A DNA stretch of 64,000 nucleotides from Escherichia virus TH47: sequence record MT446416.1; one strand, written 5' to 3'. The stretch's first letter is position 1, and every line of letters begins with the position of its first letter. Below, in pieces: positions 43,893-57,304 of the stretch. Made by a program: the position numbers and the translations under genes. Below the pieces are notes generated by a model, which ran no database searches, was not told where the DNA came from, and worked only from the letters and a program-made list of their open reading frames with translations.

Positions 43893-44075
43893 TTAGTACT
43901 TATATATTAGGGCGAGGATGTAGTACAGTTTATATATTCTATCCTCGTACATTAGGGTGTACTTAGTACATTCTTGAAACATTGTTTTTGCGTCATCTTT
44001 TATGCCCAATGCAACGTTTGGTATATGGCTCTGTAGATGCATTGGAAGTTTCTCTATGTAGTATTCTTTATACAT
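43893..44075 (-). CDS. FamC small protein
   Basis: start MYKEYYIEKLPMHLQ at 44073-44075. Confidence 0.5.
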   Translation of the reverse strand: MYKEYYIEKLPMHLQSHIPNVALGIKDDAKTMFQECTKYTLMYEDRIYKLYYILALIYKY

Positions 44076-44739
44076 AGTTTGAAATATACGTAATGAGGTG
44101 ATGAATTTTCTTATCAGTACTGATAAGTTCCTGTACATGTTTTGTTAGTTTGTACGCGTTTTTATAGAGTCCTGGATTATCGATTACAGTACTGTACATG
44201 AATTCTTCTTCTGGTGTTAATTCTTTGTTTTGTAGTTCTTTTAGGAATTGCAGTACTGTAATAGTTTCTTCTGTACGTTGCTGTTGGAAGAAATGCATGT
44301 TATCGTGTACTTTTTCTGAACCAATGCAGTACATATCGCCGATTTGGAATTGTGCTGTACGGATATCATGGGTGCTATTACAATTCCCGAAGAAGTATAC
44401 ATTCCCGAAAGATAGAATTATAGTGCACGGGATATTATCCAGGTGCATATAGATATAGATAGATGCGTCCTCTAGTGCTTTTGTGCTGGTATTAGTACTC
44501 AATACTTTTAAATCAGTATTATAGATATTCATATAATGAACAGCTATATTATTTTTCTTCATGTACAATTCAAGGTTCTTTGATACGTTAACTCCATTTG
44601 TACTGGTTTTTTTACTTTTCTTTAGGTTCTTTAGTACATTAGGGTGATAAGTATATGCATTAGTAATAGATTCAGCCTGGATGGATTGCAAGTACTTAAA
44701 GTGCTGTAGGTATCGTTTACTTTGTGGATTGAGTTTCAT
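44068..44739 (-). CDS. hypothetical protein, paralog of 53657-54307, with FamA-like C-terminal segment
   Basis: 223 aa; shared KKNNIAVHYMN/CNST segments; C-terminal EEEFMYSTVIDNPG. Confidence 0.5.
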   Translation of the reverse strand: MKLNPQSKRYLQHFKYLQSIQAESITNAYTYHPNVLKNLKKSKKTSTNGVNVSKNLELYMKKNNIAVHYMNIYNTDLKVLSTNTSTKALEDASIYIYMHLDNIPCTIILSFGNVYFFGNCNSTHDIRTAQFQIGDMYCIGSEKVHDNMHFFQQQRTEETITVLQFLKELQNKELTPEEEFMYSTVIDNPGLYKNAYKLTKHVQELISTDKKIHHLITYISNYV

Positions 44740-44750
44740 ATTGGTTTCCT

Positions 44751-44930
44751 TTATATAGATGCGAGTGCGAGGATTTCCCTGTAGGGATTATCTTGTGTTA
44801 GTGCGTGATGAATGCAGCTATTGAGATTAATATTTTTAGTACTGTTAGTTGCTAGGTTGTAGTACTTCACGAAGGTGTCGTACATGAAACGGTCTTTAAT
44901 GCTTATGTGTTCTATATAGTATTCTTGCAT
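44751..44930 (-). CDS. FamC small protein
   Basis: start MQEYYIEHISIKDRF at 44928-44930. Confidence 0.45.
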   Translation of the reverse strand: MQEYYIEHISIKDRFMYDTFVKYYNLATNSTKNINLNSCIHHALTQDNPYREILALASI

Positions 44931-44994
44931 ATTATTCCTTAGATTTAGATTAGTTTTAGTACTTCTCTGTACGTGTACTTTTCGTTTTGTGCTT

Positions 44995-45117
44995 CTACTG
45001 TACATGATAGAAAGTATCGTTTTTATCTCTTTTGTTCCCGACTGTGTAGTACCTTTGGAATTGATTATAAATGTATCTATCTTTGTGCTGAAGTTTATAG
45101 ATATAGAATTCTTGCAT
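44995..45117 (-). pseudogene. truncated FamC remnant (40 codons)
   Basis: MQEFYIYKLQHKDRYIYNQFQRYYTVGNKRDKNDTFYHVQ then stop. Confidence 0.3.
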
Positions 45118-45125
45118 AGAGTACC

Positions 45126-45311
45126 TTAGATAGAGATTAGTTTTAGTACTTCAATATATGTGCGGTACTCTGCTTTAATTAAATTTGTACACACTGTAAG
45201 GGAACTTCTTTGTATAAGTTTATTGCCGCTTTTATACGCATTTCTCCACACATAGAGATGAGATCTTTCTGGCATAGATAGTTTATTTGTATAGTACTCA
45301 AATGTATTCAT
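45126..45311 (-). CDS. FamC small protein
   Basis: start MNTFEYYTNKLSMPE at 45309-45311. Confidence 0.45.
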   Translation of the reverse strand: MNTFEYYTNKLSMPERSHLYVWRNAYKSGNKLIQRSSLTVCTNLIKAEYRTYIEVLKLISI

Positions 45312-45321
45312 AGTATTCTCT

Positions 45322-45507
45322 TTACATATCAATAAGTTTCAGTACTGCTCTGTACGTGTACTTAGTTGTTAGTGTTTCTTTTATAGCAGTACAGAAGTAA
45401 TGTTGTTTGTCTCTAGTACTGACGCGTTTGTAGTACCATACATGGGAGTTGTGGCTGTACTTGTCCCTGTCGGATAGTTTTTGGTAATAGTAGCTTTTAT
45501 GATTCAT
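45322..45507 (-). CDS. FamC small protein
   Basis: N-term MNHKSYYYQKL. Confidence 0.45.
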   Translation of the reverse strand: MNHKSYYYQKLSDRDKYSHNSHVWYYKRVSTRDKQHYFCTAIKETLTTKYTYRAVLKLIDM

Positions 45508-45728
45508 TGTAATGTAATTAGCCTTATTATGTTAAAGTACTCGGTCCCTGGTACACCTTGTAGAATATTATCAACTACATTTATTTGGTGCAGGATGAGT
45601 ACATTCGGTGCGGATCTTTTAAGGTTTTTTTAAAGTACTGAATTCTTGTTTAAGGATGTTCTGCACATCTTTAGGGAGAATATCTAAGTAGTACTGATGA
45701 ATGTTCATAGTTTTCATATAGTACTCTT

Positions 45729-45914
45729 TTAGAACTTAAAGATGAGGTTCATGATAGATAAGTACTTAGTTTCAGGAAATTGATGTTCTATTGCATAACG
45801 TGTCGCCAGTCTGAAGTCAAATTTATAAAAGGGAGTATTCATATCCAGAGGTTCATTGGGGAATGAATCTCGGTATTGCTTGTGCAGCTTACTACAGTAG
45901 AATTCTTTATACAT
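45729..45914 (-). CDS. FamC small protein
   Basis: N-term MYKEFYCSKL. Confidence 0.45.
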   Translation of the reverse strand: MYKEFYCSKLHKQYRDSFPNEPLDMNTPFYKFDFRLATRYAIEHQFPETKYLSIMNLIFKF

Positions 45915-45915
45915 A

Positions 45916-46128
45916 TTAGTGCTCGATTAATAGGGTAAGGATGTAATAGTATTGCATACTTTCTACCCCTTGTAAAGCATTTCTTATTTTATTATTCCTG
46001 TACGAGTTCAAGAGTTTAGGACAATGTTTGAGGTTTATATAATTATTTTGTGTATACAGTAGGCTTTCTCGTAGACCTTTTGTTGGTAGTGCATCGATGT
46101 AGTACTGTTCAATGTTCATAGTGTTCAT
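45916..46128 (-). CDS. FamC-like small protein
   Basis: N-term MNTMNIEQYYIDAL. Confidence 0.45.
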   Translation of the reverse strand: MNTMNIEQYYIDALPTKGLRESLLYTQNNYINLKHCPKLLNSYRNNKIRNALQGVESMQYYYILTLLIEH

Positions 46129-46352
46129 AGAGCTACCAGTACTAAGATTTTTGATAATTGTTTATTGCTATCCCCGCAGATGTTGCTGTGTAAAATACTC
46201 GCGGTGAGGGTATCAAGTGCACTGTTCAGCATAAGGTTACATCCAGTACTGTTATGTGTTTTTAGCTCTATCAGCCACGAACTATCCGCGAGAAACTTCG
46301 CGTACTCTAGTTCAGTTAGAGTATTGATGTAGTACTTAAGTGTAGTTGTCAT
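46125..46352 (-). CDS. FamC-like small protein (first gene of the array)
   Basis: N-term MTTTLKYYINTL. Confidence 0.45.
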   Translation of the reverse strand: MTTTLKYYINTLTELEYAKFLADSSWLIELKTHNSTGCNLMLNSALDTLTASILHSNICGDSNKQLSKILVLVAL

Positions 46353-46455
46353 GTACAGTTCTCCTTATATTCCTTCTATAGTACACCAGTACTGAAAGGA
46401 TGTCAAGGGTTTTGTTTATGGGGTAAATATGATATAATGAATAAAGGAGGGAAAT

Positions 46456-47577
46456 ATGTTACCTTTTGTTAGAATGTTTGATTATGGAAATGAAGCACCT
46501 GATCCTAGTTCGGGATTTCGAATAATAAGTACAGGAGACGCATTACTATTAATTACTGAGAGTGGTGATTTGTGGGTGCGTGGTTATAACCGTTATGGCA
46601 AGTTAGGTATAGGTAATAACACCACTACCTATGTACTTGATTGGACGAAGGTTAGAAGTGATGTGAAGTTTGCGTGTGGTAGTGGATTGGTAACAGTTAT
46701 CTTTACTAAGGATAATCGTATATTGTACTGTGGTGACAAATGGTTTGAAACGGGTGGTGTTGGTAGTGCACAGATTTTCACATGGACAGATGTTACGCAC
46801 CAATTTGGGGTAGTAGATTTGAGTACAGTAAGGGATATGAAAATGTCTTATTACACGATTGGATTATTGACTACTAATAATCAATTATACGCTAAGGGAT
46901 TTGATAATAACCTATCATTTGGTGGGGTTACTAATAAGGCGACTGCTGTGTTTATTGCGAATAATGTACAAGAGTTGTATACGAGTTTAGTTAGTACTAT
47001 CTACGTTGATACAAGTGGTATATTACATCGTTGTGGCATGAGTGATAACGGTTCGTTGGGTAATAATGGTAGTTTAACTTCGTATCTAAGTTATTCACAG
47101 CCTGGTATGACGATTAAGGACATTGGAATGATGACTACGAACACTGGGTTATTATATACTGATTCTAGTGCACGCACGAGATATTTTATTGCTGGACAGA
47201 ACTTGAATAAACAGATGGGTAATGCGGCGTCTGCGAGTGCCATTACGAGTACTTACACAGAGCTTTCTGGTAGTGTTGATAAGTTTTCTTCTTTATGGGA
47301 GAATGATGGGATATTGATGACATTTGCTGTGGGTAAGAACACTAATCAGTTATTTTATGCTGGGACGAATACTTTTCATGCGAGTGGTGGTGAATCTTCA
47401 TATGCGGATACATATGAGTTAGTCCCGATGGTGTTTAATGACATACAGGAAGTGTTATGTGCACAGCGTTTATCGGTGGTACATGATTCTACGAAGTGGT
47501 ATTACTGTGGTGATGCTAATTCAATGTATGGTTTACCGGACGTAAGTACTTTTACTGAGTTACCGTTGCCCTTTTAA
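46456..47577 (+). CDS. RCC1-like repeat (beta-propeller) protein, FamD copy 1
   Basis: N-term MLPFVRMFDYGN; repeats GYNRYGKLGIGN etc.; AGGAGGG RBS; TATAAT 46434-46439. Confidence 0.8.
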   Translation: MLPFVRMFDYGNEAPDPSSGFRIISTGDALLLITESGDLWVRGYNRYGKLGIGNNTTTYVLDWTKVRSDVKFACGSGLVTVIFTKDNRILYCGDKWFETGGVGSAQIFTWTDVTHQFGVVDLSTVRDMKMSYYTIGLLTTNNQLYAKGFDNNLSFGGVTNKATAVFIANNVQELYTSLVSTIYVDTSGILHRCGMSDNGSLGNNGSLTSYLSYSQPGMTIKDIGMMTTNTGLLYTDSSARTRYFIAGQNLNKQMGNAASASAITSTYTELSGSVDKFSSLWENDGILMTFAVGKNTNQLFYAGTNTFHASGGESSYADTYELVPMVFNDIQEVLCAQRLSVVHDSTKWYYCGDANSMYGLPDVSTFTELPLPF

Positions 47578-47585
47578 TAATAGGT

Positions 47586-47615
47586 CAGTACTGAAATATG
47601 TACTGGTATTTTTTG
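47586..47615 (+). terminator. intrinsic terminator hairpin + T-run
   Basis: CAGTAC-N8-GTACTG followed by TTTTTTG. Confidence 0.55.
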
Positions 47616-47654
47616 TAAATACTATATAATTATTTTAATTTTGGAGATTTAATC

Positions 47655-48824
47655 ATGTTACCTTTTGTTAGAATGTTTGATTATGGGAATGTAGCACCTG
47701 CACCACCGAAATTTAAAAAAATACTCACCAATAACTACAACGTTGCAGTTTTAACAAGCAGTGGGGATTTATATGTACGTGGGAATAATCAAAACGGTCA
47801 ATTGGGTTTAGGTCACAAAGAAAAAGTTACTACATGGACGTTTAGTACTTCTGGTGTTCAAGATTTTTGGTTTGGTAGTTCAACACTAGTGGTTAAAAAA
47901 ACCGATGATGAAATATGGTACAGTGGACAGTCAACCTCTGTTGGTATGCCAGGGGCATCTGTATCGGGGTGGACTTCTGCCATGCCGACATTCAATACAT
48001 TAACATTACCAATATTAGATATGGCAGTTAGTAATCAGACTACAAGTGTATTACTATCAGACCGAACAATATGGAGTACTGGGGTAGGAAGTAATGGTCA
48101 ATTGGGTAATGGAACTGCGACGAACAACATTTCAGGTAAATTCGTCAAAAGTACTGTTTCGACAGAAGAAGAACAATTACCAGTTAAATTGTTTGCCAGT
48201 AATTTAATGCATGGATATGTTACCGAGAACGGCTGGTTATACTACACTGGGCAACCCAATGCAGTTAGCACTAATGGCAGTGCGGTATATAGTGTTTATA
48301 CTAGTGCTCCTATTAGTCTAAGGAATACCATTAATATCAAGTACTATACAAATAATGGAACTTCGATGGCGATGGCTATTGGTACAGATCCAAATGGTAA
48401 GACCGTACTTGCTAATGGTGGCCCTAGGATATTTGGTGCACAGGCTGACGGAGTAAATGGTCAACTAAGTAATATTAGGCCATTTGCTGTTCAAACCGAA
48501 TCATTGATGCCTCCTGGGGATTTGGTAAGTATTGCTCATAATACTTCATATTATAACCAAGTTATTGCTACAACAGATGGTATATATTGTTGCGGCTACA
48601 ACCAATCTACACACGCTGGTATGTTAGGCATTGGTACATCTACTAACGCATTAGTATATACCAAAGCAATCGTACCTGATGGTTTTGATTATAGTAAATC
48701 GCAAATGGCAGGTGAGTATAACCGTACTTATATAACTGATGGTAATTTTGTATATAGTACAGGGACAGATGTCACATATGGTGGCATTAATAGCTTAGAA
48801 TTTGTAATAGATTCACCATTATAA
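47655..48824 (+). CDS. RCC1-like repeat protein, FamD copy 2
   Basis: N-term MLPFVRMFDYGN; GNNQNGQLGLGH, GSNGQLGNG. Confidence 0.8.
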   Translation: MLPFVRMFDYGNVAPAPPKFKKILTNNYNVAVLTSSGDLYVRGNNQNGQLGLGHKEKVTTWTFSTSGVQDFWFGSSTLVVKKTDDEIWYSGQSTSVGMPGASVSGWTSAMPTFNTLTLPILDMAVSNQTTSVLLSDRTIWSTGVGSNGQLGNGTATNNISGKFVKSTVSTEEEQLPVKLFASNLMHGYVTENGWLYYTGQPNAVSTNGSAVYSVYTSAPISLRNTINIKYYTNNGTSMAMAIGTDPNGKTVLANGGPRIFGAQADGVNGQLSNIRPFAVQTESLMPPGDLVSIAHNTSYYNQVIATTDGIYCCGYNQSTHAGMLGIGTSTNALVYTKAIVPDGFDYSKSQMAGEYNRTYITDGNFVYSTGTDVTYGGINSLEFVIDSPL

Positions 48825-48830
48825 AAAGAA

Positions 48831-48861
48831 AAGCCAGTACTTGATACTGGCTTTTCTTTTT
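48831..48861 (+). terminator. intrinsic terminator (AGCCAGTAC-TTGA-TACTGGCT + T-run)
   Basis: hairpin read directly; same element after copies 3 and 6. Confidence 0.6.
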
Positions 48862-48868
48862 GTATTAA

Positions 48869-48884
48869 ATATAGTATAATGAAT
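48869..48884 (+). promoter_or_regulatory. -10-only promoter-like motif TATAATGAATA (T4-late-like?)
   Basis: TATAAT 48875-48880, ~17 nt upstream of ATG, RBS AAGGAGGG; no good -35. Confidence 0.4.
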
Positions 48885-48897
48885 AAAGGAGGGAATT

Positions 48898-50007
48898 ATG
48901 TTACCTTTTGTTAGAATGTTTGATTACGGGAATATTGCACCTGAAGCTCCAAAGATAAAGAAAGTACTGTGCGGTCGTGATAATTTGTACGTCCTCTATG
49001 GCGATGGCTCACTTTATGGTTGTGGGGATAATGCGTATTTTCAGTTAAACGTTAAAAATGCAGCAACAAGAAATACTTGGATATTAATTTCAGAAGGTGT
49101 TACTGATGTATGGGCTGGGGCGTACAATATTCTTTATCTCAAGGGTGAAGAATTCATAATGCATGGAGTTACCACACAATTAGGCACAGGAGATACTATG
49201 ATTCCGTTGGGTGGTTTGAATGTTACTTCTTCATTTCCACATATATCTAATATTAAAATGATATCAATTGGTGCAGATACAATGCACTACGTTGATGCTA
49301 GTGGTTCGATTGTTTATGGTAGAGGCATGAATGGTAACTATTCACTCGGTGGTGGGTATTCCACGGCTCAGAGTACTTTTGTTTCAGTTATTAATACCGG
49401 AGCTAATACAGTCCTTGATATATTGGGTACACAGAATAACACATTAATATTAACATCAAATGGTGAACTTCTCGGTTGTGGGAGTAGTGGGTATGGTTCA
49501 CTTGGCGTAAGTCCAGGACAGTATACTACACTAGTAAGCAGGTTAACCAGTGTTAAACTGTTTGGTGGTAACAGTACTGGTACTCTTGCTTATTCAGCCA
49601 GCAATATATACAACGCAGGTTGGCAGTATGTTGGTCAACTTGGTAACGGTATTACAACGAACACACTACTATATCCATTTGCATTAAACTCCACTACTAT
49701 TGATAGTAAGATACATAAAATATCAAAATCAAGTACAACTTCACGTGTTAATATGTACGCAACAACCGAAGGAAAGATATATAGTACTGGTGAATTTGGT
49801 AGAAATGGTTCTGGTGGTAGTTTGAGTAGATTCACCAATACACTAACTTTAGATAATTACAACCCAGAAAAATCAGCATTATACACATGTGCAAATTTTA
49901 GTATAGTATTTGATGGTAATAATCAAATTTATGCTTGTGGTTCTTTTTTGTATGTGCCAGGTCCTATTACCACGAACTCATGGTCTGCAATTACAATGCC
50001 GAAATGA
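48898..50007 (+). CDS. RCC1-like repeat protein, FamD copy 3
   Basis: N-term MLPFVRMFDYGN. Confidence 0.8.
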   Translation: MLPFVRMFDYGNIAPEAPKIKKVLCGRDNLYVLYGDGSLYGCGDNAYFQLNVKNAATRNTWILISEGVTDVWAGAYNILYLKGEEFIMHGVTTQLGTGDTMIPLGGLNVTSSFPHISNIKMISIGADTMHYVDASGSIVYGRGMNGNYSLGGGYSTAQSTFVSVINTGANTVLDILGTQNNTLILTSNGELLGCGSSGYGSLGVSPGQYTTLVSRLTSVKLFGGNSTGTLAYSASNIYNAGWQYVGQLGNGITTNTLLYPFALNSTTIDSKIHKISKSSTTSRVNMYATTEGKIYSTGEFGRNGSGGSLSRFTNTLTLDNYNPEKSALYTCANFSIVFDGNNQIYACGSFLYVPGPITTNSWSAITMPK

Positions 50008-50021
50008 TACTATAAAACTAT

Positions 50022-50050
50022 GCCAGTACTTGATACTGGCTTTTCTTTTT
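50022..50050 (+). terminator. intrinsic terminator (GCCAGTAC-TTGA-TACTGGC + T-run)
   Basis: read directly. Confidence 0.6.
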
Positions 50051-50085
50051 GATTAAATATAGTATAAAGAATAAAGGAGGGAATT

Positions 50086-51243
50086 ATGTTACCTTTTGCT
50101 AGAATGGTTAAGTACGGAAATAGAGTTCCAGTACCTGTTGGGATTAAGAAGATAAACTCTGTCGGTACTAGTCAGATGATATTGACGAATACAGGCGACG
50201 TGTATGCATATGGTCAAAACACCAACTGGAGATTTGGTAGTGGTAGTTCTAGTGAGATTAGTGGGGGAGTTCCACAGATGGTAATGCAGGGTGTATCGGA
50301 TATGATATGTCATCCCAGATGTACATTATTAATAATGTCTGATGGACGTTATCTTGCTGCTGGGAACTCTACAGTACTGGGAGGTAGTTCAGGATTGAAT
50401 TATGTAGATGTTAGTTCTAAGTTCGCTACATTAGGAACTATCAAGAAAATTGATTTTACCCGAAGGAACAGTACTTCGTATACAGTATATGCATTAAACA
50501 CTGATGGTGATTTATATGGTATTGGATATGGAAACCGTGGTCAATTGGGGTTAGGTAAAAATAATAGTTTAGGTGCATTTACGAAGATAAACACCAATTG
50601 CAGGAATTTTGTAAGTTGTTCTTATGAGACGATAGTGGCTCTTAAGAATGATAATACTGCGTGGTTCTGTGGAAATTATTCGTTTATTAGTGGTAATACT
50701 GATGTTACTACATTTACTAACCTTGGTGATACTGCAATACTTAATATCTACGGTAATGGTTTAAATGGTGAGTTGTTATACACAAAAAGTGATGGTTTAT
50801 ATTTCCGTGGTTTAGCGTCGAACCGATATGGTTATTCATTCAGTTTAGAACAGCGTGCAATTAATAGCAAGATTACATTGCCGTTTGCTTATGATGTAAG
50901 TACGTTTAAGATTCTCACAGATGAACAGACAACAACCGTCAGTGTGTGGATTTCCAATTCAGACGTTCATTATGGGGTTGGTGCAAATAGCAGTAACACT
51001 AACAGAATGGGATTCACCAACCCAACTATGCCAGGTGCTGGTTCAAACTTTACATTACAGGATTTCAGTTCAGTGCAGGGCACTATTGAGACTGTTGTTA
51101 GTGCAAGTTATTATACAACTCTTATAAACTCTAATGGGAAAGTATTTGGCAGTGGGCCTTTTGATGATGATTCTTTAACTTATTTTCCTGGGAATAATCC
51201 AAAACTGATGAACTACACAGAAATTAAATTGAATATAAATTAG
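50086..51243 (+). CDS. RCC1-like repeat protein, FamD copy 4
   Basis: N-term MLPFARMVKYGN; GYGNRGQLGLGK. Confidence 0.8.
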   Translation: MLPFARMVKYGNRVPVPVGIKKINSVGTSQMILTNTGDVYAYGQNTNWRFGSGSSSEISGGVPQMVMQGVSDMICHPRCTLLIMSDGRYLAAGNSTVLGGSSGLNYVDVSSKFATLGTIKKIDFTRRNSTSYTVYALNTDGDLYGIGYGNRGQLGLGKNNSLGAFTKINTNCRNFVSCSYETIVALKNDNTAWFCGNYSFISGNTDVTTFTNLGDTAILNIYGNGLNGELLYTKSDGLYFRGLASNRYGYSFSLEQRAINSKITLPFAYDVSTFKILTDEQTTTVSVWISNSDVHYGVGANSSNTNRMGFTNPTMPGAGSNFTLQDFSSVQGTIETVVSASYYTTLINSNGKVFGSGPFDDDSLTYFPGNNPKLMNYTEIKLNIN

Positions 51244-51255
51244 GAGAGAATAATT

Positions 51256-52416
51256 ATGTTACCTTTTGCTAGAATGGTTAAGTACGGAAACATTGCACCA
51301 TCCCCTGCTGCCATTAAAAAATTAGTTACCGGATATAACTGGGTTATGGTATTGGGTAGTAATGGTAAATTATATACCCGTGGTGCCAATTCAAGTGGTC
51401 AGTTGGGTTTAGGAGACAATACAGCCAGAACATCATGGACATTAACTGCATCGGATGTCATTGATGTATGGTGTGGTCAGTATGCCACAATGATTCACAA
51501 ATCAGATGGTACATATCAATACACAGGGAAACAATACAATGTGTGTATGGGTACATCATCTGTTAATGCATGGACTTCTATGCAAACTCTTATTAATCAA
51601 GTTAATTCTCAAGGAACAATTACAGAAATATCACTAGGAAATAACTTCATTTCAATACTTATGAGTAATGGGACCATTTGGTGTGGTGGTTATAACACAG
51701 GAGGACAGCTTGGCAATGCTTCTTATTCTAACAGTTTTACTACATTAGTAAAATCAATTATACCAAGTGGTGCGGTTCCGAAAAGGATTATTGCAGGTAT
51801 AAACATGTGTTCATTTATTGCCGAAAGTGGTAGATTATATTACACAGGTGAAGTTAATGGTGATACTAACAGTACTTCAACCGTGAGTTTTTATAATGTA
51901 TTCACATTGTCAGATAGATTACCAGCAACTGTTAGTACTATAGCATTTATAAGTACTGTTAATGATATGGTGCAAGGTATTGCAAGAAACAAAAGCACGT
52001 CAGTTGTTTCAGTGTACACAGGTGGTGATCAATTATATGGACAGGCTGCTACTGGTACTGATACTACAACAAAAATATTGACAACTGTTGTGGCAAATCA
52101 ACCACAAGGAAATATATTAGATATAGGATATGGGTACGGATATTACTCTAACTTTGTTATTACTGACACAGGTGTATACGTTGCTGGTAATAACTCAGCG
52201 ACTTCATACTATGGACAATTAAGTACAGGTTCAACTACTAACGTATTAACTTACACTAAGTCTATTACTCCTGATTTAAATTTCAATGATGTTAAAATCC
52301 AAAGTTGCTATGGTAAAACATATATGACAGATGGAAACAAAATATATTCAAGTGGTACTAACCTAGTATCTGGTGGTACTGCTAGTACTATATTTGTTGA
52401 AGATTCACCAATTTAA
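51256..52416 (+). CDS. RCC1-like repeat protein, FamD copy 5
   Basis: N-term MLPFARMVKYGN; GANSSGQLGLGD, GYNTGGQLGNAS; no terminator between copies 4 and 5. Confidence 0.8.
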   Translation: MLPFARMVKYGNIAPSPAAIKKLVTGYNWVMVLGSNGKLYTRGANSSGQLGLGDNTARTSWTLTASDVIDVWCGQYATMIHKSDGTYQYTGKQYNVCMGTSSVNAWTSMQTLINQVNSQGTITEISLGNNFISILMSNGTIWCGGYNTGGQLGNASYSNSFTTLVKSIIPSGAVPKRIIAGINMCSFIAESGRLYYTGEVNGDTNSTSTVSFYNVFTLSDRLPATVSTIAFISTVNDMVQGIARNKSTSVVSVYTGGDQLYGQAATGTDTTTKILTTVVANQPQGNILDIGYGYGYYSNFVITDTGVYVAGNNSATSYYGQLSTGSTTNVLTYTKSITPDLNFNDVKIQSCYGKTYMTDGNKIYSSGTNLVSGGTASTIFVEDSPI

Positions 52417-52422
52417 AATAAT

Positions 52423-52450
52423 GCCAGTACTCTGTACTGGTATTCTTATT
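52423..52450 (+). terminator. intrinsic terminator hairpin
   Basis: GCCAGTAC-TCT-GTACTGG followed by T-rich tract. Confidence 0.5.
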
Positions 52451-52486
52451 TGTATTAAATATAGTATAATGAATAAAGGAGGAATT

Positions 52487-53623
52487 ATGTTACCTTTTGC
52501 AAGAATGGTTAAGTACGGGAATATAAAAGTAAAGAGTACTATCCAAAAAGTTATCCTTGGTGGTGGTGGTCAATGTGTGGTAACATTACTCAGTGATGGT
52601 AGAGTGTATGGACGTGGTTACAACACTACACATGGGTTAGGTACTGGTACAACAACATTCGTAAGTGATTGGGTATTAATGGGCGATAATATTGTTGATA
52701 TCCATTCAAATGGTGTTCCTGGCACATTCCTTATCACCAAAGAAAATAGAATTTTGTATTCTGGTTGGGCGACACCAATCAATGGTACAACTGCACATTA
52801 TACACGTTTCACTGATTTAACATCAACTGTATTTGCTGCGGTGGATGTTAGTAATATTAAAACAATTACTGGAAATATTAATGCTACAATGGTCCTGTTG
52901 AATGATGGTTCTCTTTATGGTAGTGGTGCAAATACAGGTGTTATTGGTAATGGTAGAAATGTTGCATTATCAACACAAACATATGTAACTAATGATGTGA
53001 GAGAAGTAAAAACATATGGATCCATGACTACTATAACAAAAAATAACAATCAAATACTGGGTAGTGGTCTTTTATACCACGGCGTGAACGGTACAAATTC
53101 AATAATAAACACGTCTTCATATACATTACTGTACACATTACCGAGTTCTGATTGTTTTCAATTTGCATTTGATGAATATACATTTGGATATGTTGACCCT
53201 AGCACTAATACTTCTTATATAAGAGGTATACCAATAAATGGTTCATTGGGTAATGGTGTTACTAATAATACAGCAGTTACAACATGGGTTACTAAAGTTT
53301 GGAATACACCAATTGATAGTTCTATACCTAATAAATCACATACACTTAACCATGTCTCCTTGTTCAATGATGGAAACTTATGGACAACTGGTGCATCTAA
53401 TGTCGGTTATTCCAATGGTACAAATAGCACAACAGCTAATACTTGGACCAGTTCATCTAATTTACCATTCAACACCAATAACATCACAGACTATGCGTTG
53501 GGTAGTAATATTACTGTGGTGGTAATCGACTACAGGTCTATGTACATACTAGCTAACAACTTAATTGCTGGAACTACATCAACCACTTACAAATTTGAGC
53601 CATATAATTCTCCACCAGTTTAA
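52487..53623 (+). CDS. RCC1-like repeat protein, FamD copy 6
   Basis: start MLPFARMVKYGN at 52487 after AAGGAGG; track N-extension from 52373 rejected. Confidence 0.75.
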   Translation: MLPFARMVKYGNIKVKSTIQKVILGGGGQCVVTLLSDGRVYGRGYNTTHGLGTGTTTFVSDWVLMGDNIVDIHSNGVPGTFLITKENRILYSGWATPINGTTAHYTRFTDLTSTVFAAVDVSNIKTITGNINATMVLLNDGSLYGSGANTGVIGNGRNVALSTQTYVTNDVREVKTYGSMTTITKNNNQILGSGLLYHGVNGTNSIINTSSYTLLYTLPSSDCFQFAFDEYTFGYVDPSTNTSYIRGIPINGSLGNGVTNNTAVTTWVTKVWNTPIDSSIPNKSHTLNHVSLFNDGNLWTTGASNVGYSNGTNSTTANTWTSSSNLPFNTNNITDYALGSNITVVVIDYRSMYILANNLIAGTTSTTYKFEPYNSPPV

Positions 53624-53629
53624 TATAAT

Positions 53630-53659
53630 GCCAGTACTTGAGTACTGGCTTTTCTTTTA
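53630..53659. terminator. bidirectional hairpin terminator between convergent genes
   Basis: GCCAGTACTTGAGTACTGGC + TTTTCTTTT. Confidence 0.55.
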
Positions 53660-54307
53660 CATATTATATAATGTGAATGCAGTCACTTTACCAGTTGTTG
53701 TTAGTTCATTATAAAGATACTCCAAGATTCTCGCACACTCTAAGTATATCTCGATATCATCATGAATAAGTGAGTACTGGAATAGCTGTTCTTCAGATAA
53801 TTTGTATTGACTCCCTCTTAATGAATTGAGAATATCTTTCACATCATCAAGTACTGGGTAAAGTACGAAATCTTCATCATATTTTGAAGCAATAAATTCA
53901 AATCCACCACCATCAGTACTAGATATACCAATCAGTACTTTATCAATCAAGTTAATGTTTATATAACGGTTGTGATTTGGGTGAATTGAAATCTCAAACA
54001 TACGAGTACTGTTACAATCAACATCAATATACAAATATACATCATTGAATTTATAAGTTAAGCAACCATACTCAATGTAATCAGAGCAAATAATTGATGA
54101 ATTTTTTCTCGTCTCTGCGTAATGCATATTGATATTCTTTTTACGCATAAGTAATTCGAACTTTGCACTAAACTTACCACCAGTAAGATAATTAGTATTA
54201 GGACGTTTGTAACTGGCAACTGGCCTATGGGATGATGAAAAGTATCTTTTTGTGAATCGTTTCTGTTTAGTGAAATATTCTTGATAGAACTTATTTCTTT
54301 TATTCAT
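53657..54307 (-). CDS. hypothetical protein, paralog of 44068-44739, with FamA C-terminal module
   Basis: motif SEEQLFQYSLIHDDIEIY; start MNKRNKFYQEYF at 54305-54307 after GAGG. Confidence 0.5.
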   Translation of the reverse strand: MNKRNKFYQEYFTKQKRFTKRYFSSSHRPVASYKRPNTNYLTGGKFSAKFELLMRKKNINMHYAETRKNSSIICSDYIEYGCLTYKFNDVYLYIDVDCNSTRMFEISIHPNHNRYININLIDKVLIGISSTDGGGFEFIASKYDEDFVLYPVLDDVKDILNSLRGSQYKLSEEQLFQYSLIHDDIEIYLECARILEYLYNELTTTGKVTAFTLYNM

Positions 54308-54385
54308 GAGTGCCTCAATTAAATTGCTGTAAAATTGTACGTTATAAAATGAGTAAATAAAGTATAACACAAGGAGATTTTTATT

Positions 54386-55510
54386 ATGTTACCTTTCGTA
54401 TTGTTATTTGATTATGGGAACGAAAAACAAGAAAGTTCTTATGATGTTAGTGTATATGGAAACAATAACTACATTTTAAATAAACAAACTGGAAACCTTT
54501 TTGCATCTGGTGCTGCGGCATTTATGGGTGATAACACCGTTAAGTATTATATTACCCAAATCGAATCAAATGTTCATAGCTGTGAGATAGGCTTCCTATC
54601 ATCATGGATAATTAAGAAGGACAAAACTGTTTTCATTTTAGGAAACAAAAGTTCAATTGGTCTAACCGATTCGACCACATCATGGTTTGAAATTACAAAT
54701 TTATTTTCTGCTGTTCCTGAAATATGGGACAACCTATTTGAATGTAAAGTTCAATTGGGATATAACTGCATACGTGTTATGACACCACTAGGTTCAATCT
54801 ATGCGATTGGCACAAACACTTATGGTGCATTGGGTACTGGTACTACATCCTCATCAACTTCGTTCGTTAAAAGTGGTGCTGTGGATGCTGTACGCATGGA
54901 ATCAACTGAACGTTCAGTTTTCTATCAAAACAGTTCTGGAAAATGGTTTGGATGTGGTGATAACACATATGGTATACTAGGTCTAGGAACTACCGCCAGT
55001 CGTGTAAACTCATACACCGCACCAGTATGGACTAATGCAGAAGCTGTTAGCTTCTCTAACCGTGGTATCATATACAGCCTCAATGGTACTCTATACTCAT
55101 GTGGTGACAAAGTTAATGGTCAGCTAGGGGATGGATATACACAAAGCATAGACGCTGCCAGGAGCACACCATACACCATAGGAACCGCATTCCAAATTGG
55201 TAAGGCAATAACATCAGCTACACAAGCATCAGCCAACGTATTCATTGGTAAAGATAATAAGTTCTATGGTACTGGTAGTATTGCTGCTGGTATAAATGGT
55301 AGTGCTAGTGCTACATTAAGTAAAGTTACTGCGTTATCAGCATCACTACCACCTGACATTACATACAATGATATTATAACATTTAATACAGGGACCGTAA
55401 CTTTTATTCAAGCAAAAGGACAACTATATTATGTTGGTAGAAGAACTTACATAGATAATAGTTCAGACGTTACCACACAGTTCAGTTTAATTGGTGGCTT
55501 AGATAATTAA
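54386..55510 (+). CDS. RCC1-like repeat protein, FamD copy 7 (most divergent)
   Basis: N-term MLPFVLLFDYGN; GTNTYGALGTGT, GDNTYGILGLGT, GDKVNGQLGDGY. Confidence 0.8.
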   Translation: MLPFVLLFDYGNEKQESSYDVSVYGNNNYILNKQTGNLFASGAAAFMGDNTVKYYITQIESNVHSCEIGFLSSWIIKKDKTVFILGNKSSIGLTDSTTSWFEITNLFSAVPEIWDNLFECKVQLGYNCIRVMTPLGSIYAIGTNTYGALGTGTTSSSTSFVKSGAVDAVRMESTERSVFYQNSSGKWFGCGDNTYGILGLGTTASRVNSYTAPVWTNAEAVSFSNRGIIYSLNGTLYSCGDKVNGQLGDGYTQSIDAARSTPYTIGTAFQIGKAITSATQASANVFIGKDNKFYGTGSIAAGINGSASATLSKVTALSASLPPDITYNDIITFNTGTVTFIQAKGQLYYVGRRTYIDNSSDVTTQFSLIGGLDN

Positions 55511-55515
55511 AATTA

Positions 55516-55547
55516 ATCCAGTACTATAATAGTACTGGATTTTTTAT
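55516..55547. terminator. bidirectional hairpin terminator
   Basis: ATCCAGTACTATAATAGTACTGGAT + TTTTTT between convergent genes. Confidence 0.6.
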
Positions 55548-55918
55548 TATAACATACGTTTTTTACGAATAGTATTGTGGATATTTTTTAAGTAGTTCAC
55601 ACCTTTACACAACCCATAAAATACACCAGCACATACACCAAATACAGGTATCATACATGCAAACATCGTTATCAATTCCCACATCTCCATGCCATCTTGA
55701 TTCGGTCCAAGGTCAAAGATAACAACCGAAACCAAACCTGTGATACTTAGCATATAATATGCCATGAAGATAAAAAAAGAAACAATACCAACATCAGAGC
55801 GAACTGAATTTAGCATATTATATACTGGGGTTACACAGAAGTAATACAATAACCAAACCAAAGAGCCTAAACTAAACACAATAATAGTAATGATCGAAAA
55901 TATTTCACGATAACTCAT
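55547..55918 (-). CDS. FamE small multi-TM membrane protein
   Basis: 123 aa, several hydrophobic helices; last of seven tandem paralogs. Confidence 0.6.
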   Translation of the reverse strand: MSYREIFSIITIIVFSLGSLVWLLYYFCVTPVYNMLNSVRSDVGIVSFFIFMAYYMLSITGLVSVVIFDLGPNQDGMEMWELITMFACMIPVFGVCAGVFYGLCKGVNYLKNIHNTIRKKRML

Positions 55919-55919
55919 T

Positions 55920-56282
55920 TTAGTTCCTCTTACCTAAACGCTCATGGATTTCGGAAATCTTATTATACATCCACGCCATCAACTCAACGGATGCACAGAG
56001 AATAACCACACACAGTGTTAGTGAACATACCATAATACCAAATGTTATAAAATTCAAACTCGATGTTAATAATGCAACCAGCATTAGAATAAAACCAAAA
56101 TTGAATGCTGTACTCAACACAGTATATGCTGGACTATATCTCCTTTGTATTACATCATATATATTTGATAATGGTCGCTTATGGAAGTACTTCCCAATGC
56201 ACACGAATGCATTCAGTGAGAAGATAAATGTATACGCCATTACCATTAATTGACCAATAAAAGATAATTCAATATTATTCAT
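55920..56282 (-). CDS. FamE small membrane protein
   Basis: 120 aa, hydrophobic. Confidence 0.6.
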   Translation of the reverse strand: MNNIELSFIGQLMVMAYTFIFSLNAFVCIGKYFHKRPLSNIYDVIQRRYSPAYTVLSTAFNFGFILMLVALLTSSLNFITFGIMVCSLTLCVVILCASVELMAWMYNKISEIHERLGKRN

Positions 56283-56283
56283 G

Positions 56284-56655
56284 TTATCCTCGTTTGCGGT
56301 ATTTGATGCTTTGGTGCATTCTCTGAAAATGTGGAACTAATACATATTGTACGGTTTGCCAAATTACCATCAGATTATGGACAGCACCACCGAGTAGACC
56401 AAACATTAGACAGATAATTACCAGTACTGGATCACCATCTACCATACCCCATTTGAATATATGTAAAATCCATACAGTGATAAGTAGTAATAAACTAATC
56501 CAATACGTAGTAAAAAATCCCGCATGTAATTCATAATCATCAGCAATTTCATCGTATACGGTTTCCAAGAAGGATACACAGAAGAACTTGCCAATAATAA
56601 CAATTGTACTAATAAACAACATAGCAGTTAATATAATAAGTGCAATTTCCATCAC
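56284..56655 (-). CDS. FamE small membrane protein
   Basis: 123 aa, hydrophobic. Confidence 0.6.
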   Translation of the reverse strand: MMEIALIILTAMLFISTIVIIGKFFCVSFLETVYDEIADDYELHAGFFTTYWISLLLLITVWILHIFKWGMVDGDPVLVIICLMFGLLGGAVHNLMVIWQTVQYVLVPHFQRMHQSIKYRKRG

Positions 56656-56966
56656 ATCCCTCGTTTACGCTTTTGATTGCGTCTAAATTCGGTTAGCCCA
56701 CGAATAATCGGTGGCATCAGACTACATAAAAAAATAACAGTTGTTGGCAATAACATGAAGTCAATCATTGCTGTATTAACAGGTGGATCACATACCAAAT
56801 AATACAAACACGTAATACTAATTATGGTTGACCCAATAAAAAGAATACAAAATTCTTTTATCTGTTTTTCAACATAATCAAACATCTTCAATACAAATAA
56901 AAATCCAACCCAACACATAATAAAATAGAATGAATACAACGTGTAAATCAATGTTACGATATCCAT
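56652..56966 (-). CDS. FamE small membrane protein
   Basis: 104 aa; ATGA overlap. Confidence 0.6.
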   Translation of the reverse strand: MDIVTLIYTLYSFYFIMCWVGFLFVLKMFDYVEKQIKEFCILFIGSTIISITCLYYLVCDPPVNTAMIDFMLLPTTVIFLCSLMPPIIRGLTEFRRNQKRKRGM

Positions 56967-57304
56967 TAGTACCTCGCATCAGGAACTTTAGAACGCAATT
57001 TATGAACGGCTGGGATCAACAACAAACTTACATATGCAATAGTTGAACCCCAATAGAATACTAATATAATTGGTTCACCATTAGAACGTAAACCTCTACT
57101 AATCATTGAGTAGTGAATAATAGGCATAAACATCGCCATAAAAAACCATGCGTGTAATTTTAATTGCAGCATGTTATCAGAGATGAATACTGAAATTGGT
57201 CGTTTAAAGAACCACATCAGAAAGTAGAACCCAGCACTAACAATATAGTACATAGTACTAACTTTCATATACCACGGCATTAAGTGTAAAAAATATTCCA
57301 TCAT
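56966..57304 (-). CDS. FamE small membrane protein
   Basis: 112 aa. Confidence 0.6.
   Translation of the reverse strand: MMEYFLHLMPWYMKVSTMYYIVSAGFYFLMWFFKRPISVFISDNMLQLKLHAWFFMAMFMPIIHYSMISRGLRSNGEPIILVFYWGSTIAYVSLLLIPAVHKLRSKVPDARY

What the first reader, a model, noticed from the sequence alone, without database searches (positions are those of the whole stretch)
46434..54430. Near-identical N-terminal leader (MLPF[VA]RM[FV][DK]YGN) and 5' region across all seven RCC1-like genes
The first ~12 codons and the RBS are almost identical at nucleotide level while the rest of each protein has diverged. Such a leader could be a virion or capsid targeting peptide (by analogy with the capsid-targeting sequence of T4 internal proteins), a secretion signal, or the closing strand of the propeller; alternatively the identity is maintained by recombination between cassettes.
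Basis: inference. Interest (0 to 1): 0.7.

Follow-up and report, generated by a model that had tools for sequence, protein, structure and literature searches.

The report
Shared virion-docking tag on jumbo-phage propellers
Seven very different beta-propeller genes of an E. coli jumbo phage all begin with the same 12-residue peptide, which related phages also put on other lectin-like virion proteins, so it most likely attaches swappable accessory proteins to the virus particle.

Summary
The window comes from an Asteriusvirus-like (121Q/PBECO4/phAPEC6) E. coli jumbo phage. Seven RCC1-like genes start with MLPF[VA]RM[FV][DK]YGN (g7: MLPFVLLFDYGN). Nucleotide identity is 0.83 in codons 1-12 and 0.25-0.52 in the bodies, which are 17-36% identical in amino acids.

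The leader is not the closing strand of the propeller. AlphaFold2 leaves residues 1-12 unstructured (pLDDT below 50). It is not a secretion signal either.

It behaves as a modular tag. In related jumbo phages (CBB, GAP32, Munch, fENko-Kae01, Kaldavass and metagenomic contigs) the same 12-mer heads Kelch propellers, ConA/LamG lectin folds and a glycine-rich domain.

In Munch/fENko-Kae01 the tag's synonymous sites vary freely while its residues stay fixed, so selection acts on the peptide.

Published virion proteomes contain tagged proteins: 8 in phAPEC6, 7 of 9 in CBB, and GAP32 gp001.

In Asteriusvirus, recombination also homogenises the tag together with a terminator-promoter-RBS junction. 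Synonymous codons 2-9 are nearly invariant. Homology blocks end at codon ~12. Orthologous bodies carry different tag alleles.

Best reading: a virion-incorporation or docking peptide sitting on a recombination-prone cassette junction. I found no description of it in the papers searched. It is a new variant of a known kind (T4 capsid-targeting sequence; KP32 RBP2 conserved peptide).

The parts
46456..46491 (+). 12-codon tag of g1 (MLPFVRMFDYGN)
46456..47577 (+). g1, RCC1-like 7-blade propeller gene (373 aa)
46424..46450 (+). junction upstream of g1: TAAATATGATATAAT (late-promoter-like TAAATA core) followed by the AGGAGG RBS
47584..47607 (+). terminator-like hairpin after g1 (a CAGTAC...GTACTG variant) followed by a T-run
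47616..47647 (+). diverged junction of g2: TAAATACTATATAAT followed by a GGAGA RBS
47655..48824 (+). g2, RCC1-like gene (389 aa); tag at 47655-47690 (MLPFVRMFDYGN)
48833..48892 (+). full junction cassette: hairpin GCCAGTACTTGATACTGGC, T-run, TAAATATAGTATAAT and AGGAGG
48898..50007 (+). g3, RCC1-like gene (369 aa); tag at 48898-48933 (MLPFVRMFDYGN)
50022..50080 (+). full junction cassette between g3 and g4 (hairpin 50022-50040, TAAATATAGTATAAA 50054-50068, RBS 50075-50080)
50086..51243 (+). g4, RCC1-like gene (385 aa); tag at 50086-50121 (MLPFARMVKYGN). Its C-terminal extension reads through a degenerate junction
51225..51255 (+). degenerate junction remnant (TAAATTGAATATAAA followed by an AGGAG RBS that overlaps the g4 stop); no hairpin
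51256..52416 (+). g5, RCC1-like gene (386 aa); tag at 51256-51291 (MLPFARMVKYGN). This protein was modelled with AF2
52420..52481 (+). full junction cassette between g5 and g6 (hairpin 52420-52444, TAAATATAGTATAAT 52456-52470, RBS 52477-52481)
52487..53623 (+). g6, RCC1-like gene (378 aa); tag at 52487-52522 (MLPFARMVKYGN)
53630..53649 (.). hairpin GCCAGTACTTGAGTACTGGC, read as a terminator on both strands, between g6 and the minus-strand ORF
53657..54370 (-). 237-aa ORF of unknown function (phrog_34359) that interrupts the array. It is not tagged. A minus-strand hypothetical ORF holds the same position in WPEC5 and ph0011
54354..54376 (+). diverged junction of g7 (TAAATAAAGTATAAC followed by an AGGAG RBS)
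54386..55510 (+). g7, RCC1-like gene (374 aa); divergent tag at 54386-54421 (MLPFVLLFDYGN)
55515..55541 (.). hairpin (CCAGTAC...GTACTGG core) that ends the array

Best explanation
The first 12 residues, M-[LI]-P-F-x-[RK]-[MIL]-[VLIF]-x-Y-G-N, form a portable N-terminal tag. It is flexible in the free protein and does not belong to the propeller. Rak2-like jumbo phages place it on a whole repertoire of small globular binding modules: RCC1 propellers in this phage, and Kelch propellers, ConA/LamG lectin folds and a glycine-rich domain in relatives. The tag most likely directs these proteins into the virion by binding a common acceptor protein.

My preferred form is docking of interchangeable adhesin-like heads onto an external virion structure such as fibres, hairs or decoration proteins. 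The alternating hydrophobic residues (L2, F4, V/L8, Y10), the YGN turn and the Pro-rich linker that follow suggest a strand that folds on binding.

In Asteriusvirus the tag's DNA is also the 3' end of a ~100-nt repeated junction: terminator hairpin, late-promoter-like TAAATA box, RBS, then codons 1-12. This junction is the only sequence neighbouring cassettes share. Homologous recombination and gene conversion within it shuffle bodies and tag alleles, and that is why the identity holds at nucleotide level.

Shown here or in the literature: the tag is modular; selection acts on the peptide; AF2 leaves it unstructured; tagged relatives are found in virions; there is a recombination footprint. 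Inferred: that the tag is what causes incorporation; the identity of the acceptor; an external location.
For: - Peptide-level selection. In Munch/fENko-Kae01 (22 unique copies) the residues are fixed while synonymous codons vary about as expected (homozygosity 0.57 observed, 0.47 expected; R6 is AGG 9, AGA 8, CGT 1; G11 uses all four codons).
- Deep conservation. The tag occurs with different codons in GAP32, Kaldavass, fHe-Yen9-03, CBB and IMG/VR contigs.
- Modularity. The same 12-mer heads ConA-like proteins P0057-P0067. It also heads Laminin_G_3, Kelch and Gly_rich_2 proteins scoring above Pfam cut-offs. All nine tagged CBB genes are non-RCC1.
- The same ConA-like body occurs with a different N-terminal motif in other phages.
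- Structure. AF2 leaves residues 1-12 below pLDDT 50 and unstructured in both the RCC1 model and the ConA-like model. The bodies match UVR8/RPGR propellers at TM 0.79 and carbohydrate-binding jelly rolls.
- Virion association. phAPEC6 gp003, 005, 006, 007, 009, 010, 549 and 551 were found by MS in CsCl-purified virions (PMC7247149), and all begin with the tag. CBB_536, 537, 548, 549, 551, 552 and 553 were found by MS, which is 7 of its 9 tagged proteins (PMC5259590). GAP32_001 was identified by MS. GAP32_002 is named 'virion structural protein'.
- Distant RCC1 relatives in Vequintavirinae have collinear N-termini (MIPFAII.., MFPIP..). They close the tail-fibre cluster, and two of the three examined (GAP31, PsgM04F) carry Big_2 domains.
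- Recombination. Across 52 Asteriusvirus copies L2 is TTA in 51/51, P3 is CCT in 52/52 (body usage 30%), K9 is AAG in 33/33 (body usage 29%) and R6 is AGA in 49/50, while codons 10-12 vary. Homology blocks with five relatives end at +20 to +43 of the next gene or start at -4 to -24. Bodies 92-95% identical carry different tag alleles, VRMFD versus [AGT]RM[VI]K.
- The junction core TAAATA resembles the ATAAATA late-promoter consensus reported upstream of CBB and GAP32 structural genes.
Against: - No experiment links the tag itself to incorporation. The MS data only show that the proteins, tagged or processed, are in virion preparations.
- Peptide counts for the phAPEC6 RCC1 proteins are low (1-5 peptides, 3-17% coverage).
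- In the fENko-Kae01 record, only one of the 13 tagged genes in this array carries an LC-MS/MS note, and that preparation was only ultrafiltered.
- No acceptor protein was identified.
- The location, external or inside the capsid, is unresolved.
- AF2 disorder in a monomer model is compatible with several functions.
- My literature search covered open-access text only.
Confidence: 0.6

Rival explanations
1. Capsid-targeting sequence in the T4 sense. The tag binds the scaffold or core during prohead assembly, so the proteins are packaged inside the head (the inner-body or 'DNA condensation' idea of the phAPEC6 authors). They may then be injected as host-directed effectors.
For: - The overall pattern matches T4 internal proteins: a hypervariable locus, unrelated bodies, and only a short conserved N-terminal peptide (PMC3012670).
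- The proteins are in virions.
- phAPEC6 has an inner body with no assigned proteins.
- Propeller and Kelch folds can also bind proteins.
Against: - No conserved Glu or protease motif ((L/I)xE or (S/A/G)xE) lies in or just after the tag; position 9 is variable.
- The bodies are 23-45 kDa rigid beta-propellers or lectin jelly rolls, unlike small basic ejectable internal proteins (inference).
- Distant relatives lie in tail-fibre modules, and some carry surface-type Big_2 domains.
- PHROG families are 'tail protein' or 'virion structural protein'.
Confidence: 0.2
2. No peptide function. The identical 5' ends are only a by-product of gene conversion or recombination between tandem cassettes, or of recent duplication of a promoter-RBS-start module.
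For: - Synonymous sites of codons 2-9 are invariant in Asteriusvirus, including non-preferred codons.
- Block boundaries fall at codon ~12, and tag alleles are swapped between orthologs.
Against: - In Munch/fENko-Kae01 many genes are translationally coupled and lack the junction. Their synonymous sites vary freely, yet the residues are fixed.
- The tag is conserved across genera with different codons and on unrelated folds.
- M1, P3, F4 and Y10 are invariant in 99 of 99 copies, although the scan pattern itself required [MV]-[LI]-P-F.
Confidence: 0.05
3. The peptide acts before or apart from assembly. It could be a recognition site for a dedicated chaperone or modifying enzyme, a degron, or a co-translational or expression element controlling the amounts of these proteins.
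For: - A disordered, conserved N-terminus is typical of such signals.
- Genome-specific flavours of the tag (MIPF..RIL in Munch, MLPFP in Kaldavass and fHe-Yen9-03) fit co-evolution with any single phage-encoded partner.
Against: - It does not explain why nearly all tagged proteins that have been looked for are virion components.
- No significant mRNA structure surrounds the start codons (z from -0.9 to +1.4).
Confidence: 0.12
4. The leader is the N-terminal 'velcro' strand that closes blade 7 of the propeller, or a secretion signal.
For: - RCC1-type propellers usually close with an N-terminal strand (established knowledge).
- The leader has alternating hydrophobic residues.
Against: - AF2 shows no strand before residue 20. 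The first strand (residues 20-25) is the likely candidate for closing the ring, and residues 1-12 have pLDDT below 50.
- The same tag sits on jelly-roll and Kelch proteins.
- There is no h-region, and charged R6 and K/D9 lie inside the 12-mer (sequence).
Confidence: 0.03

Closest known systems
Capsid targeting sequence (CTS) of T-even phage internal proteins (IPI, IPII, IPIII and their polymorphic replacements)
   Same: - A short N-terminal peptide of about 10 residues is the only conserved part of an otherwise unrelated, fast-evolving set of virion proteins in a hyperplastic locus.
- It is portable to foreign proteins (PMC3012670).
   Different: - The T4 CTS ends at a gp21 protease site and is cleaved off. 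Here no conserved acidic residue or protease motif exists.
- The cargo here is 23-45 kDa propellers and lectin folds, not small basic proteins.
- Location inside the capsid is not shown.
- There is no sequence similarity.
N-terminal 'conserved peptide' of the secondary receptor-binding protein (RBP2) of Klebsiella phages KP32/K11/KP34, which docks onto the T4gp10-like branching domain of RBP1
   Same: - A short N-terminal peptide (29 aa in KP32gp38) is dispensable for folding but required for virion incorporation.
- It is transferable to a foreign body (PMC13352976).
- Bodies are exchangeable host-recognition modules.
   Different: - In that system one peptide sits on one trimeric beta-helix depolymerase per phage. 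Here one 12-mer sits on 5 to about 15 paralogous globular proteins of at least four folds.
- The acceptor is unknown, and no branching domain was examined.
- No homology has been shown.
- The function here is inferred, not tested.
PeSL composite terminator/promoter cassettes of T4-like phages
   Same: - Repeated intergenic stem-loop plus promoter units flank variable genes.
- They act as the points of exchange between otherwise unrelated sequences (PMC4122927; PMC2839356).
- Here, hairpin plus TAAATA box plus RBS repeats show block boundaries and allele swaps at the repeat.
   Different: - Here the repeat extends 36 nt into the coding sequence and encodes a functional peptide.
- The promoter looks late-type (TAAATA) rather than early sigma-70.
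- The phage lineage is different.
- No minicircle or experimental recombination data exist.
Eukaryotic RCC1/RLD propellers (RCC1, UVR8, RPGR, HERC2) and the database label 'regulator of chromosome condensation / DNA condensation protein'
   Same: A seven-bladed RCC1-like fold, shown by Pfam RCC1, RCC1_2 and WD40_RLD hits and by Foldseek TM 0.79 to UVR8.
   Different: - There is no evidence of Ran-GEF or chromatin function.
- The 'DNA condensation' label comes only from the domain name.
- The context (tagged arrays mixed with Kelch and lectin folds, virion proteomes) points to a binding module on the particle.

Membership tests
T4-type capsid targeting sequence | A short N-terminal peptide shared by otherwise unrelated proteins of a hypervariable locus | tested here: met
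T4-type capsid targeting sequence | The peptide ends at a prohead-protease site ((L/I)-x-E in T4) and is removed | tested here: not met
   No conserved Glu or Asp lies in residues 1-12 or just after. Position 9 is K/D/T/Q/S/E. Actual processing could not be tested.
T4-type capsid targeting sequence | The cargo is packaged inside the capsid through the scaffolding core and ejected with the DNA | not testable with these tools
   MS shows only presence in virions.
RBP2-type docking 'conserved peptide' | An N-terminal peptide outside the folded body that is dispensable for the fold | tested here: met
   AF2 gives residues 1-12 pLDDT below 50 while the body is confident, for two different folds. 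This is a prediction only.
RBP2-type docking 'conserved peptide' | The peptide is necessary and sufficient for virion incorporation | not testable with these tools
   The evidence is only correlative: tagged proteins are in the virion proteomes of phAPEC6, CBB and GAP32.
RBP2-type docking 'conserved peptide' | A partner with a T4gp10-like branching domain | not tested
   No structural genes lie in the window. The acceptor was not searched for.
PeSL-like recombination cassette | A repeated intergenic stem-loop terminator plus promoter flanking variable genes | tested here: met
   The CCAGTAC...GTACTGG hairpin occurs exactly five times in the window, all in this array. It is followed by TAAATAnnnTATAAT and an RBS.
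PeSL-like recombination cassette | Replacement or indel boundaries between related phages coincide with the repeat | tested here: met
   Block ends fall at 46476, 47689, 48937, 48941, 50122 and 52522, and block starts at -4 to -24 of an ATG. Tag alleles are swapped between orthologs.
PeSL-like recombination cassette | An early sigma-70 promoter, as in the T4-like phages | tested here: inconclusive
   There is no convincing -35 element. The core TAAATA resembles the late consensus ATAAATA of CBB and GAP32.
RCC1-like (RLD) seven-blade propeller | RCC1 repeats and a seven-blade fold | tested here: met
   Pfam hits for all seven genes. AF2 model with Foldseek TM 0.79 to UVR8.
RCC1-like (RLD) seven-blade propeller | The leader contributes the ring-closing strand | tested here: not met
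   The first strand is at residues 20-25, and residues 1-12 are unstructured.
Sec/Tat/lipoprotein signal peptide | An n-region, a hydrophobic core of at least 7-10 residues, and a cleavage site or lipobox | tested here: not met
   Read from the sequence: R6 and K/D9 interrupt the 12-mer, Pro-rich polar residues follow, and there is no Cys. No predictor was run.

The most novel reading that the evidence does not exclude
The 12-mer is a universal plug, perhaps a donor-strand-like beta-augmentation peptide. It would let Rak2-like jumbo phages load a combinatorial, rapidly exchangeable repertoire of 5 to about 15 lectin-like heads (RCC1, Kelch, LamG) onto common acceptor sites on the unexplained capsid and tail 'hairs'. 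The two co-existing tag alleles (..RMVK.. and ..RMFD.., which swap charge at position 9) would address two different acceptor sites. The cassette junction would make the repertoire shuffle by recombination. Together this would be a built-in adhesin display and diversification system.
Probability: 0.25. Interest if true: 0.85.

Novelty: new variant of a known kind. Interest (0 to 1): 0.62.

Why it matters
- It reinterprets the puzzling arrays of 'chromosome condensation regulators' in the largest coliphages. They become one branch of a tagged family of accessory virion proteins rather than DNA-condensing factors.
- It gives a concrete, testable handle, a 12-residue peptide, for finding the acceptor structure. 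That may include the unassigned hair-like fibres of phAPEC6 and CBB.
- The tag could be used to display foreign proteins on jumbo-phage particles, as the T4 CTS and the KP32 conserved peptide already are used.
- It shows a coding tag fused to a terminator-promoter junction that doubles as the recombination site for cassette shuffling. This links assembly logic to the mechanism that diversifies the genes.

Tried and rejected
- RNA structure around the start codons. Folds of -30..+48 for all seven genes gave z-scores from -0.9 to +1.4, so I rejected this.
- Velcro strand. Rejected on the AF2 model.
- Flanking synteny between the array and the Vequintavirinae RCC1 'tail protein' loci. BLASTP found only the RCC1 genes themselves and no shared neighbours.
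- Leader-only profile search of 1.84 billion representatives. HMMER weighting turned the ConA-like columns into profile positions (214), so the search became a ConA-like family search. It did not give the intended census of tagged proteins. It did reveal an alternative N-terminal motif on the same body.
- Peptide-level MS data that could show whether the tag is retained. No phAPEC6 supplement is held and the PVP-SE1 proteome paper is not held.
- Exact-pattern scan of IMG/VR with the leader DNA. It found only one 121Q-like contig, with all matches in its RCC1 array.
- The fEgEco12 and Sharanji papers. They say nothing about the leader; the first notes only that RCC1 genes are among the most divergent between close relatives.
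- tRNA scan of the window. None found.

Full report
**What the window is.** Megablast of 46300-54500 hits only E. coli and Salmonella jumbo phages of about 350-385 kb: Asteriusvirus and relatives such as 121Q, PBECO4, phAPEC6 and vB_Ec-M-J. Identity is 84-95% but coverage is patchy and never exceeds 44%. The window is therefore a new mosaic of this group. The hit genes are annotated 'regulator of chromosome condensation', 'DNA condensation protein' or 'hypothetical'.

**Observation.** Seven + strand genes carry Pfam RCC1, RCC1_2 and WD40_RLD matches. They are g1 46456, g2 47655, g3 48898, g4 50086, g5 51256, g6 52487 and g7 54386. All begin with MLPF. Six read MLPF[VA]RM[FV][DK]YGN and g7 reads MLPFVLLFDYGN.

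A 35-nt degenerate pattern finds exactly those six sites in 64 kb, and none in 100 shuffles. In a codon alignment, mean pairwise nucleotide identity is 0.83 for codons 1-12. It drops at once to 0.42 and stays at 0.25-0.52. Third-position identity is 0.71 against 0.36. The bodies are only 17-36% identical in amino acids.

**Anatomy of the 5' region.** Upstream of g1, g3, g4 and g6 lies a near-identical cassette. It consists of:
- a hairpin, GCCAGTAC-loop-GTACTGGC, followed by a T-run, which terminates the preceding gene (g1 has only a partial CCAGTAC remnant upstream);
- TAAATA(T/C)nnTATAAT;
- AAAGGAGG(G)AATT;
- the ATG.

g2 and g7 have diverged versions of this cassette. g5 follows g4 after 12 nt. 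There, g4 reads through a degenerate junction (..EIKLNIN*) and its TAG stop overlaps the g5 RBS. The exact CCAGTAC...GTACTGG hairpin occurs five times in the window, only in this array. The TAAATA core resembles the ATAAATA late-promoter consensus reported upstream of structural genes in CBB and GAP32, which is itself T4-late-like (PMC5259590). Each gene is thus a self-contained cassette that is probably expressed late. The repeat runs from the hairpin to codon 12.

**Peptide-level or DNA-level conservation? Both.** I collected 99 tagged genes from 12 loci.

In 52 unique Asteriusvirus copies the synonymous sites of codons 2-9 are almost frozen:
- L2 is TTA in 51 of 51 copies.
- P3 is CCT in 52 of 52, although CCT is only 30% of Pro codons in the bodies.
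- R6 is AGA in 49 of 50.
- V8 is GTT in 26 of 27.
- K9 is AAG in 33 of 33, against 29% usage in the bodies.
- Codons 10-12 vary roughly as codon usage predicts.

That is nucleotide-level homogenisation. In Salmonella phage Munch and Klebsiella phage fENko-Kae01 the picture differs. Many of their genes overlap (ATGA) and lack the junction. There the residues MIPF[AT]RIL.YGN are kept while synonymous sites vary about as expected (0.57 observed, 0.47 expected; R6 is AGG 9, AGA 8, CGT 1; G11 uses all four codons). That is selection on the peptide.

The tag is also present, with other codons, in:
- GAP32 (MLPFSRIIQYGN);
- Erwinia phage Kaldavass and Yersinia phage fHe-Yen9-03 (MLPFP..);
- CBB;
- two IMG/VR jumbo contigs.

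M1, P3, F4 and Y10 are invariant in all 99 copies, although the scan pattern itself required [MV]-[LI]-P-F.

**Not part of the propeller.** AlphaFold2 of g5 with a 20-sequence alignment gives mean pLDDT 82 and pTM 0.85, and a seven-blade propeller (Foldseek TM 0.79 to UVR8; also RPGR, HERC2 and RCC1). Residues 1-12 are the most conserved columns of the alignment, yet they have pLDDT below 50 and no secondary structure. The first strand is at residues 20-25 and the last at 377-382. The closing-strand idea is not supported. Charged residues inside the 12-mer and the Pro-rich polar stretch that follows rule out a classical signal peptide (read from the sequence).

**The tag is modular.** GAP32_002, next to the RCC1 gene GAP32_001, starts MLPFARIFRYGD but has a ConA-like body. 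Its ten relatives (P0057-P0067) all start M[LI]PF[AP][RK]... AF2 of this family (pLDDT 85) again leaves residues 1-12 below pLDDT 50, ahead of a jelly roll that matches carbohydrate-binding domains.

In the arrays of related phages, every + strand array gene but one small ORF (ENKO_522c, apparently a fragment of a disrupted ConA-like gene) starts with a form of the tag. Three of the five fHe-Yen9-03 genes carry a diverged form. The bodies include:
- Laminin_G_3, up to 48 bits against a gathering score of 27.6;
- Kelch propellers, up to 113 bits;
- Gly_rich_2;
- an RCC1+Kelch double propeller;
- unassigned folds.

Phage CBB has nine tagged genes and none of them is RCC1. A 366-kb IMG/VR phage has ten genes, all starting MIPFARI[SV]KYGN (one MIPFPRISTYGN), on RCC1, Kelch and LamG bodies.

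Each genome has its own flavour of the tag. This fits co-evolution with one phage-specific partner, homogenisation within the genome, or both. An accidental by-product showed that the same ConA-like body family carries a different conserved N-terminus (M-x-E-x-L-L..KK) in other phages such as Serratia phage PCH45. So N-terminal tags are exchanged on a constant body as well.

**Virion association (literature).**
- phAPEC6: ESI-MS/MS of CsCl-purified particles found gp003, 005, 006, 007, 009, 010, 549 and 551 (PMC7247149). I checked that all of them start with the tag.
- CBB: MS found CBB_536, 537, 548, 549, 551, 552 and 553, with up to 50.7% coverage (PMC5259590). Using the mapping CBB_n = gp(979-n), these are 7 of its 9 tagged proteins. 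Four of them are among the six MS-identified structural proteins that the authors list as absent from GAP32, and the authors reason that CBB's tail 'hairs' should be built from structural genes absent from GAP32.
- GAP32: GAP32_001 was identified by MS, and GAP32_002 is named 'virion structural protein'.
- fENko-Kae01: only the Gly-rich tagged protein carries an LC-MS/MS note, and that preparation was merely ultrafiltered.

Distant RCC1 relatives in Vequintavirinae have collinear N-termini: GAP31_232, phiTE_242 and PsgM04F CDS0002 begin MFPIP.. or MIPFAII... They are the last gene of the tail-fibre cluster. GAP31_232 and PsgM04F CDS0002 carry Big_2 Ig-like domains, and GAP31_232 scores 1051 bits against phrog_11922 'tail protein'.

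**Recombination footprint.** Local blastn of the array against five relatives shows homology blocks ending at 46476, 47689, 48937, 48941, 50122 and 52522. That is 20-43 nt into the next gene, at or shortly before the end of its tag. Blocks start 4-24 nt upstream of an ATG. Array size ranges from 5 genes in ph0011 to about 15 in phAPEC6.

Most tellingly, orthologous bodies carry different tag alleles. Window g1, g2 and g3 have VRMFD, while their 92-95%-identical orthologs have GRMVK, GRMIK, ARMVK or TRMVK. Window g5 has ARMVK, while its orthologs have VRMFD or VRLFD. The tag therefore moves independently of the body, with a breakpoint near codon 12. dN/dS against orthologs is 0.12-0.67, so the bodies are selected but evolve fast.

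**Mechanism proposed.** The 12-mer is a virion-incorporation tag bound by a common acceptor. I favour external docking of interchangeable lectin-like heads. I give about 0.6 to the tag concept as a whole, and about two thirds of that to an external site. The reasons are these:
- all identified bodies are binding or lectin-type folds;
- the Vequintavirinae relatives are in tail-fibre modules, and two of the three examined carry Ig-like domains;
- rigid 23-45 kDa propellers are poor candidates for ejection through a tail tube (inference);
- phAPEC6 and CBB have unassigned fibres on capsid and tail.

The junction that includes the tag DNA acts like a PeSL, as the recombination site that shuffles cassettes (PMC4122927).

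The main rival is a T4-like capsid-targeting function (0.2). It shares the overall logic but lacks a conserved protease site. A chaperone, degron or expression signal (0.12) cannot be excluded. Pure gene conversion without peptide function (0.05) and the velcro-strand or secretion readings (0.03) are contradicted by the data.

**Comparison and novelty.** Functionally the closest precedents are two. One is the T4 CTS (PMC3012670). [quoted passage not shown]

The present tag differs in four ways. It is only 12 residues long. It is shared by up to about 15 paralogs per genome and by at least four folds across several genera. It co-exists as two alleles. It is physically fused to a recombination junction. 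None of the papers I could search on phAPEC6, CBB, fEgEco12 or RaK2 mentions it, but my search covered open-access text only. I rate it a new variant of a known kind.

**Limits.** No experiment ties the peptide to incorporation. The acceptor and the location are unknown. AF2 disorder is only a prediction. The intended census of tagged proteins failed.

Noticed in passing
46456-46491, 47655-47690, 48898-48933 versus 50086-50121, 51256-51291, 52487-52522: Two tag alleles co-exist in this genome: MLPFVRMFDYGN (g1-g3) and MLPFARMVKYGN (g4-g6), with a charge swap at position 9. Orthologs in other Asteriusviruses with 92-95% identical bodies carry the other allele. This could mean two acceptor sites, or simply neutral conversion tracts.
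   Followed up: partly
52373-52486: The junction between g5 and g6 is open in the g6 frame, so ORF callers start g6 at GTG 52373 (416 aa). The same over-extension through the terminator and promoter is annotated in public records (phAPEC6 gp002, ENKO_526c, P0007).
   Followed up: yes
51200-51255: g4 has a C-terminal extension of about 12 aa (..YTEIKLNIN*) that translates a degenerate junction (TAAATTGAATATAAAT). The terminator hairpin is missing, and the TAG stop overlaps the g5 RBS. This makes g4-g5 the only co-transcribed-looking pair.
   Followed up: partly
53657-54370 (-): An untagged 237-aa minus-strand ORF of unknown function (phrog_34359) interrupts the array between g6 and g7. Minus-strand hypothetical ORFs hold the same position in WPEC5 and ph0011, and vB_Ec-M-J is 96% identical across this stretch.
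   Followed up: no
55547-57304 (-): Five tandem paralogous small hydrophobic proteins (104-123 aa, with basic C-termini) lie directly downstream of the array. A similar row of small ORFs, annotated as membrane proteins in Kaldavass, CBB and partly vB_Ec-M-J, lies next to the tagged arrays of vB_Ec-M-J, WPEC5, Kaldavass, fHe-Yen9-03 and CBB.
   Followed up: no
43893-46352 (-): Seven small minus-strand ORFs (61-84 aa) upstream of the array share an N-terminal (E/Q)YY[IT]xxL motif, so they look like another paralog family.
   Followed up: no
P0072-P0140 (ConA-like family; e.g. Serratia phage PCH45 MN334766 34531-35190): The same ConA-like 'virion structural protein' body that carries the MLPF..YGN tag in Rak2-like phages carries a different conserved N-terminus, M[LIQE]E[LSM][LM]L..KK, in most other cluster representatives (about 50 of 74). 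This may be a second docking or targeting tag.
   Followed up: partly
codon 11 of every tag (e.g. 46486-46488): Gly11 of the tag is GGA or GGG in all Asteriusvirus copies and mostly so in the other genera, although GGT is the preferred Gly codon in the bodies (53-62%). Unexplained.
   Followed up: no
L011:5117-7141 (Erwinia phage Kaldavass CDS0058): A tagged 674-aa protein combines an RCC1-like propeller and a Kelch propeller in one chain.
   Followed up: no
18000-42000: This stretch has higher G+C (0.35-0.40 against about 0.32) and strongly negative AT skew. It is densely packed with short minus-strand ORFs. There are no tRNA genes anywhere in the window.
   Followed up: no
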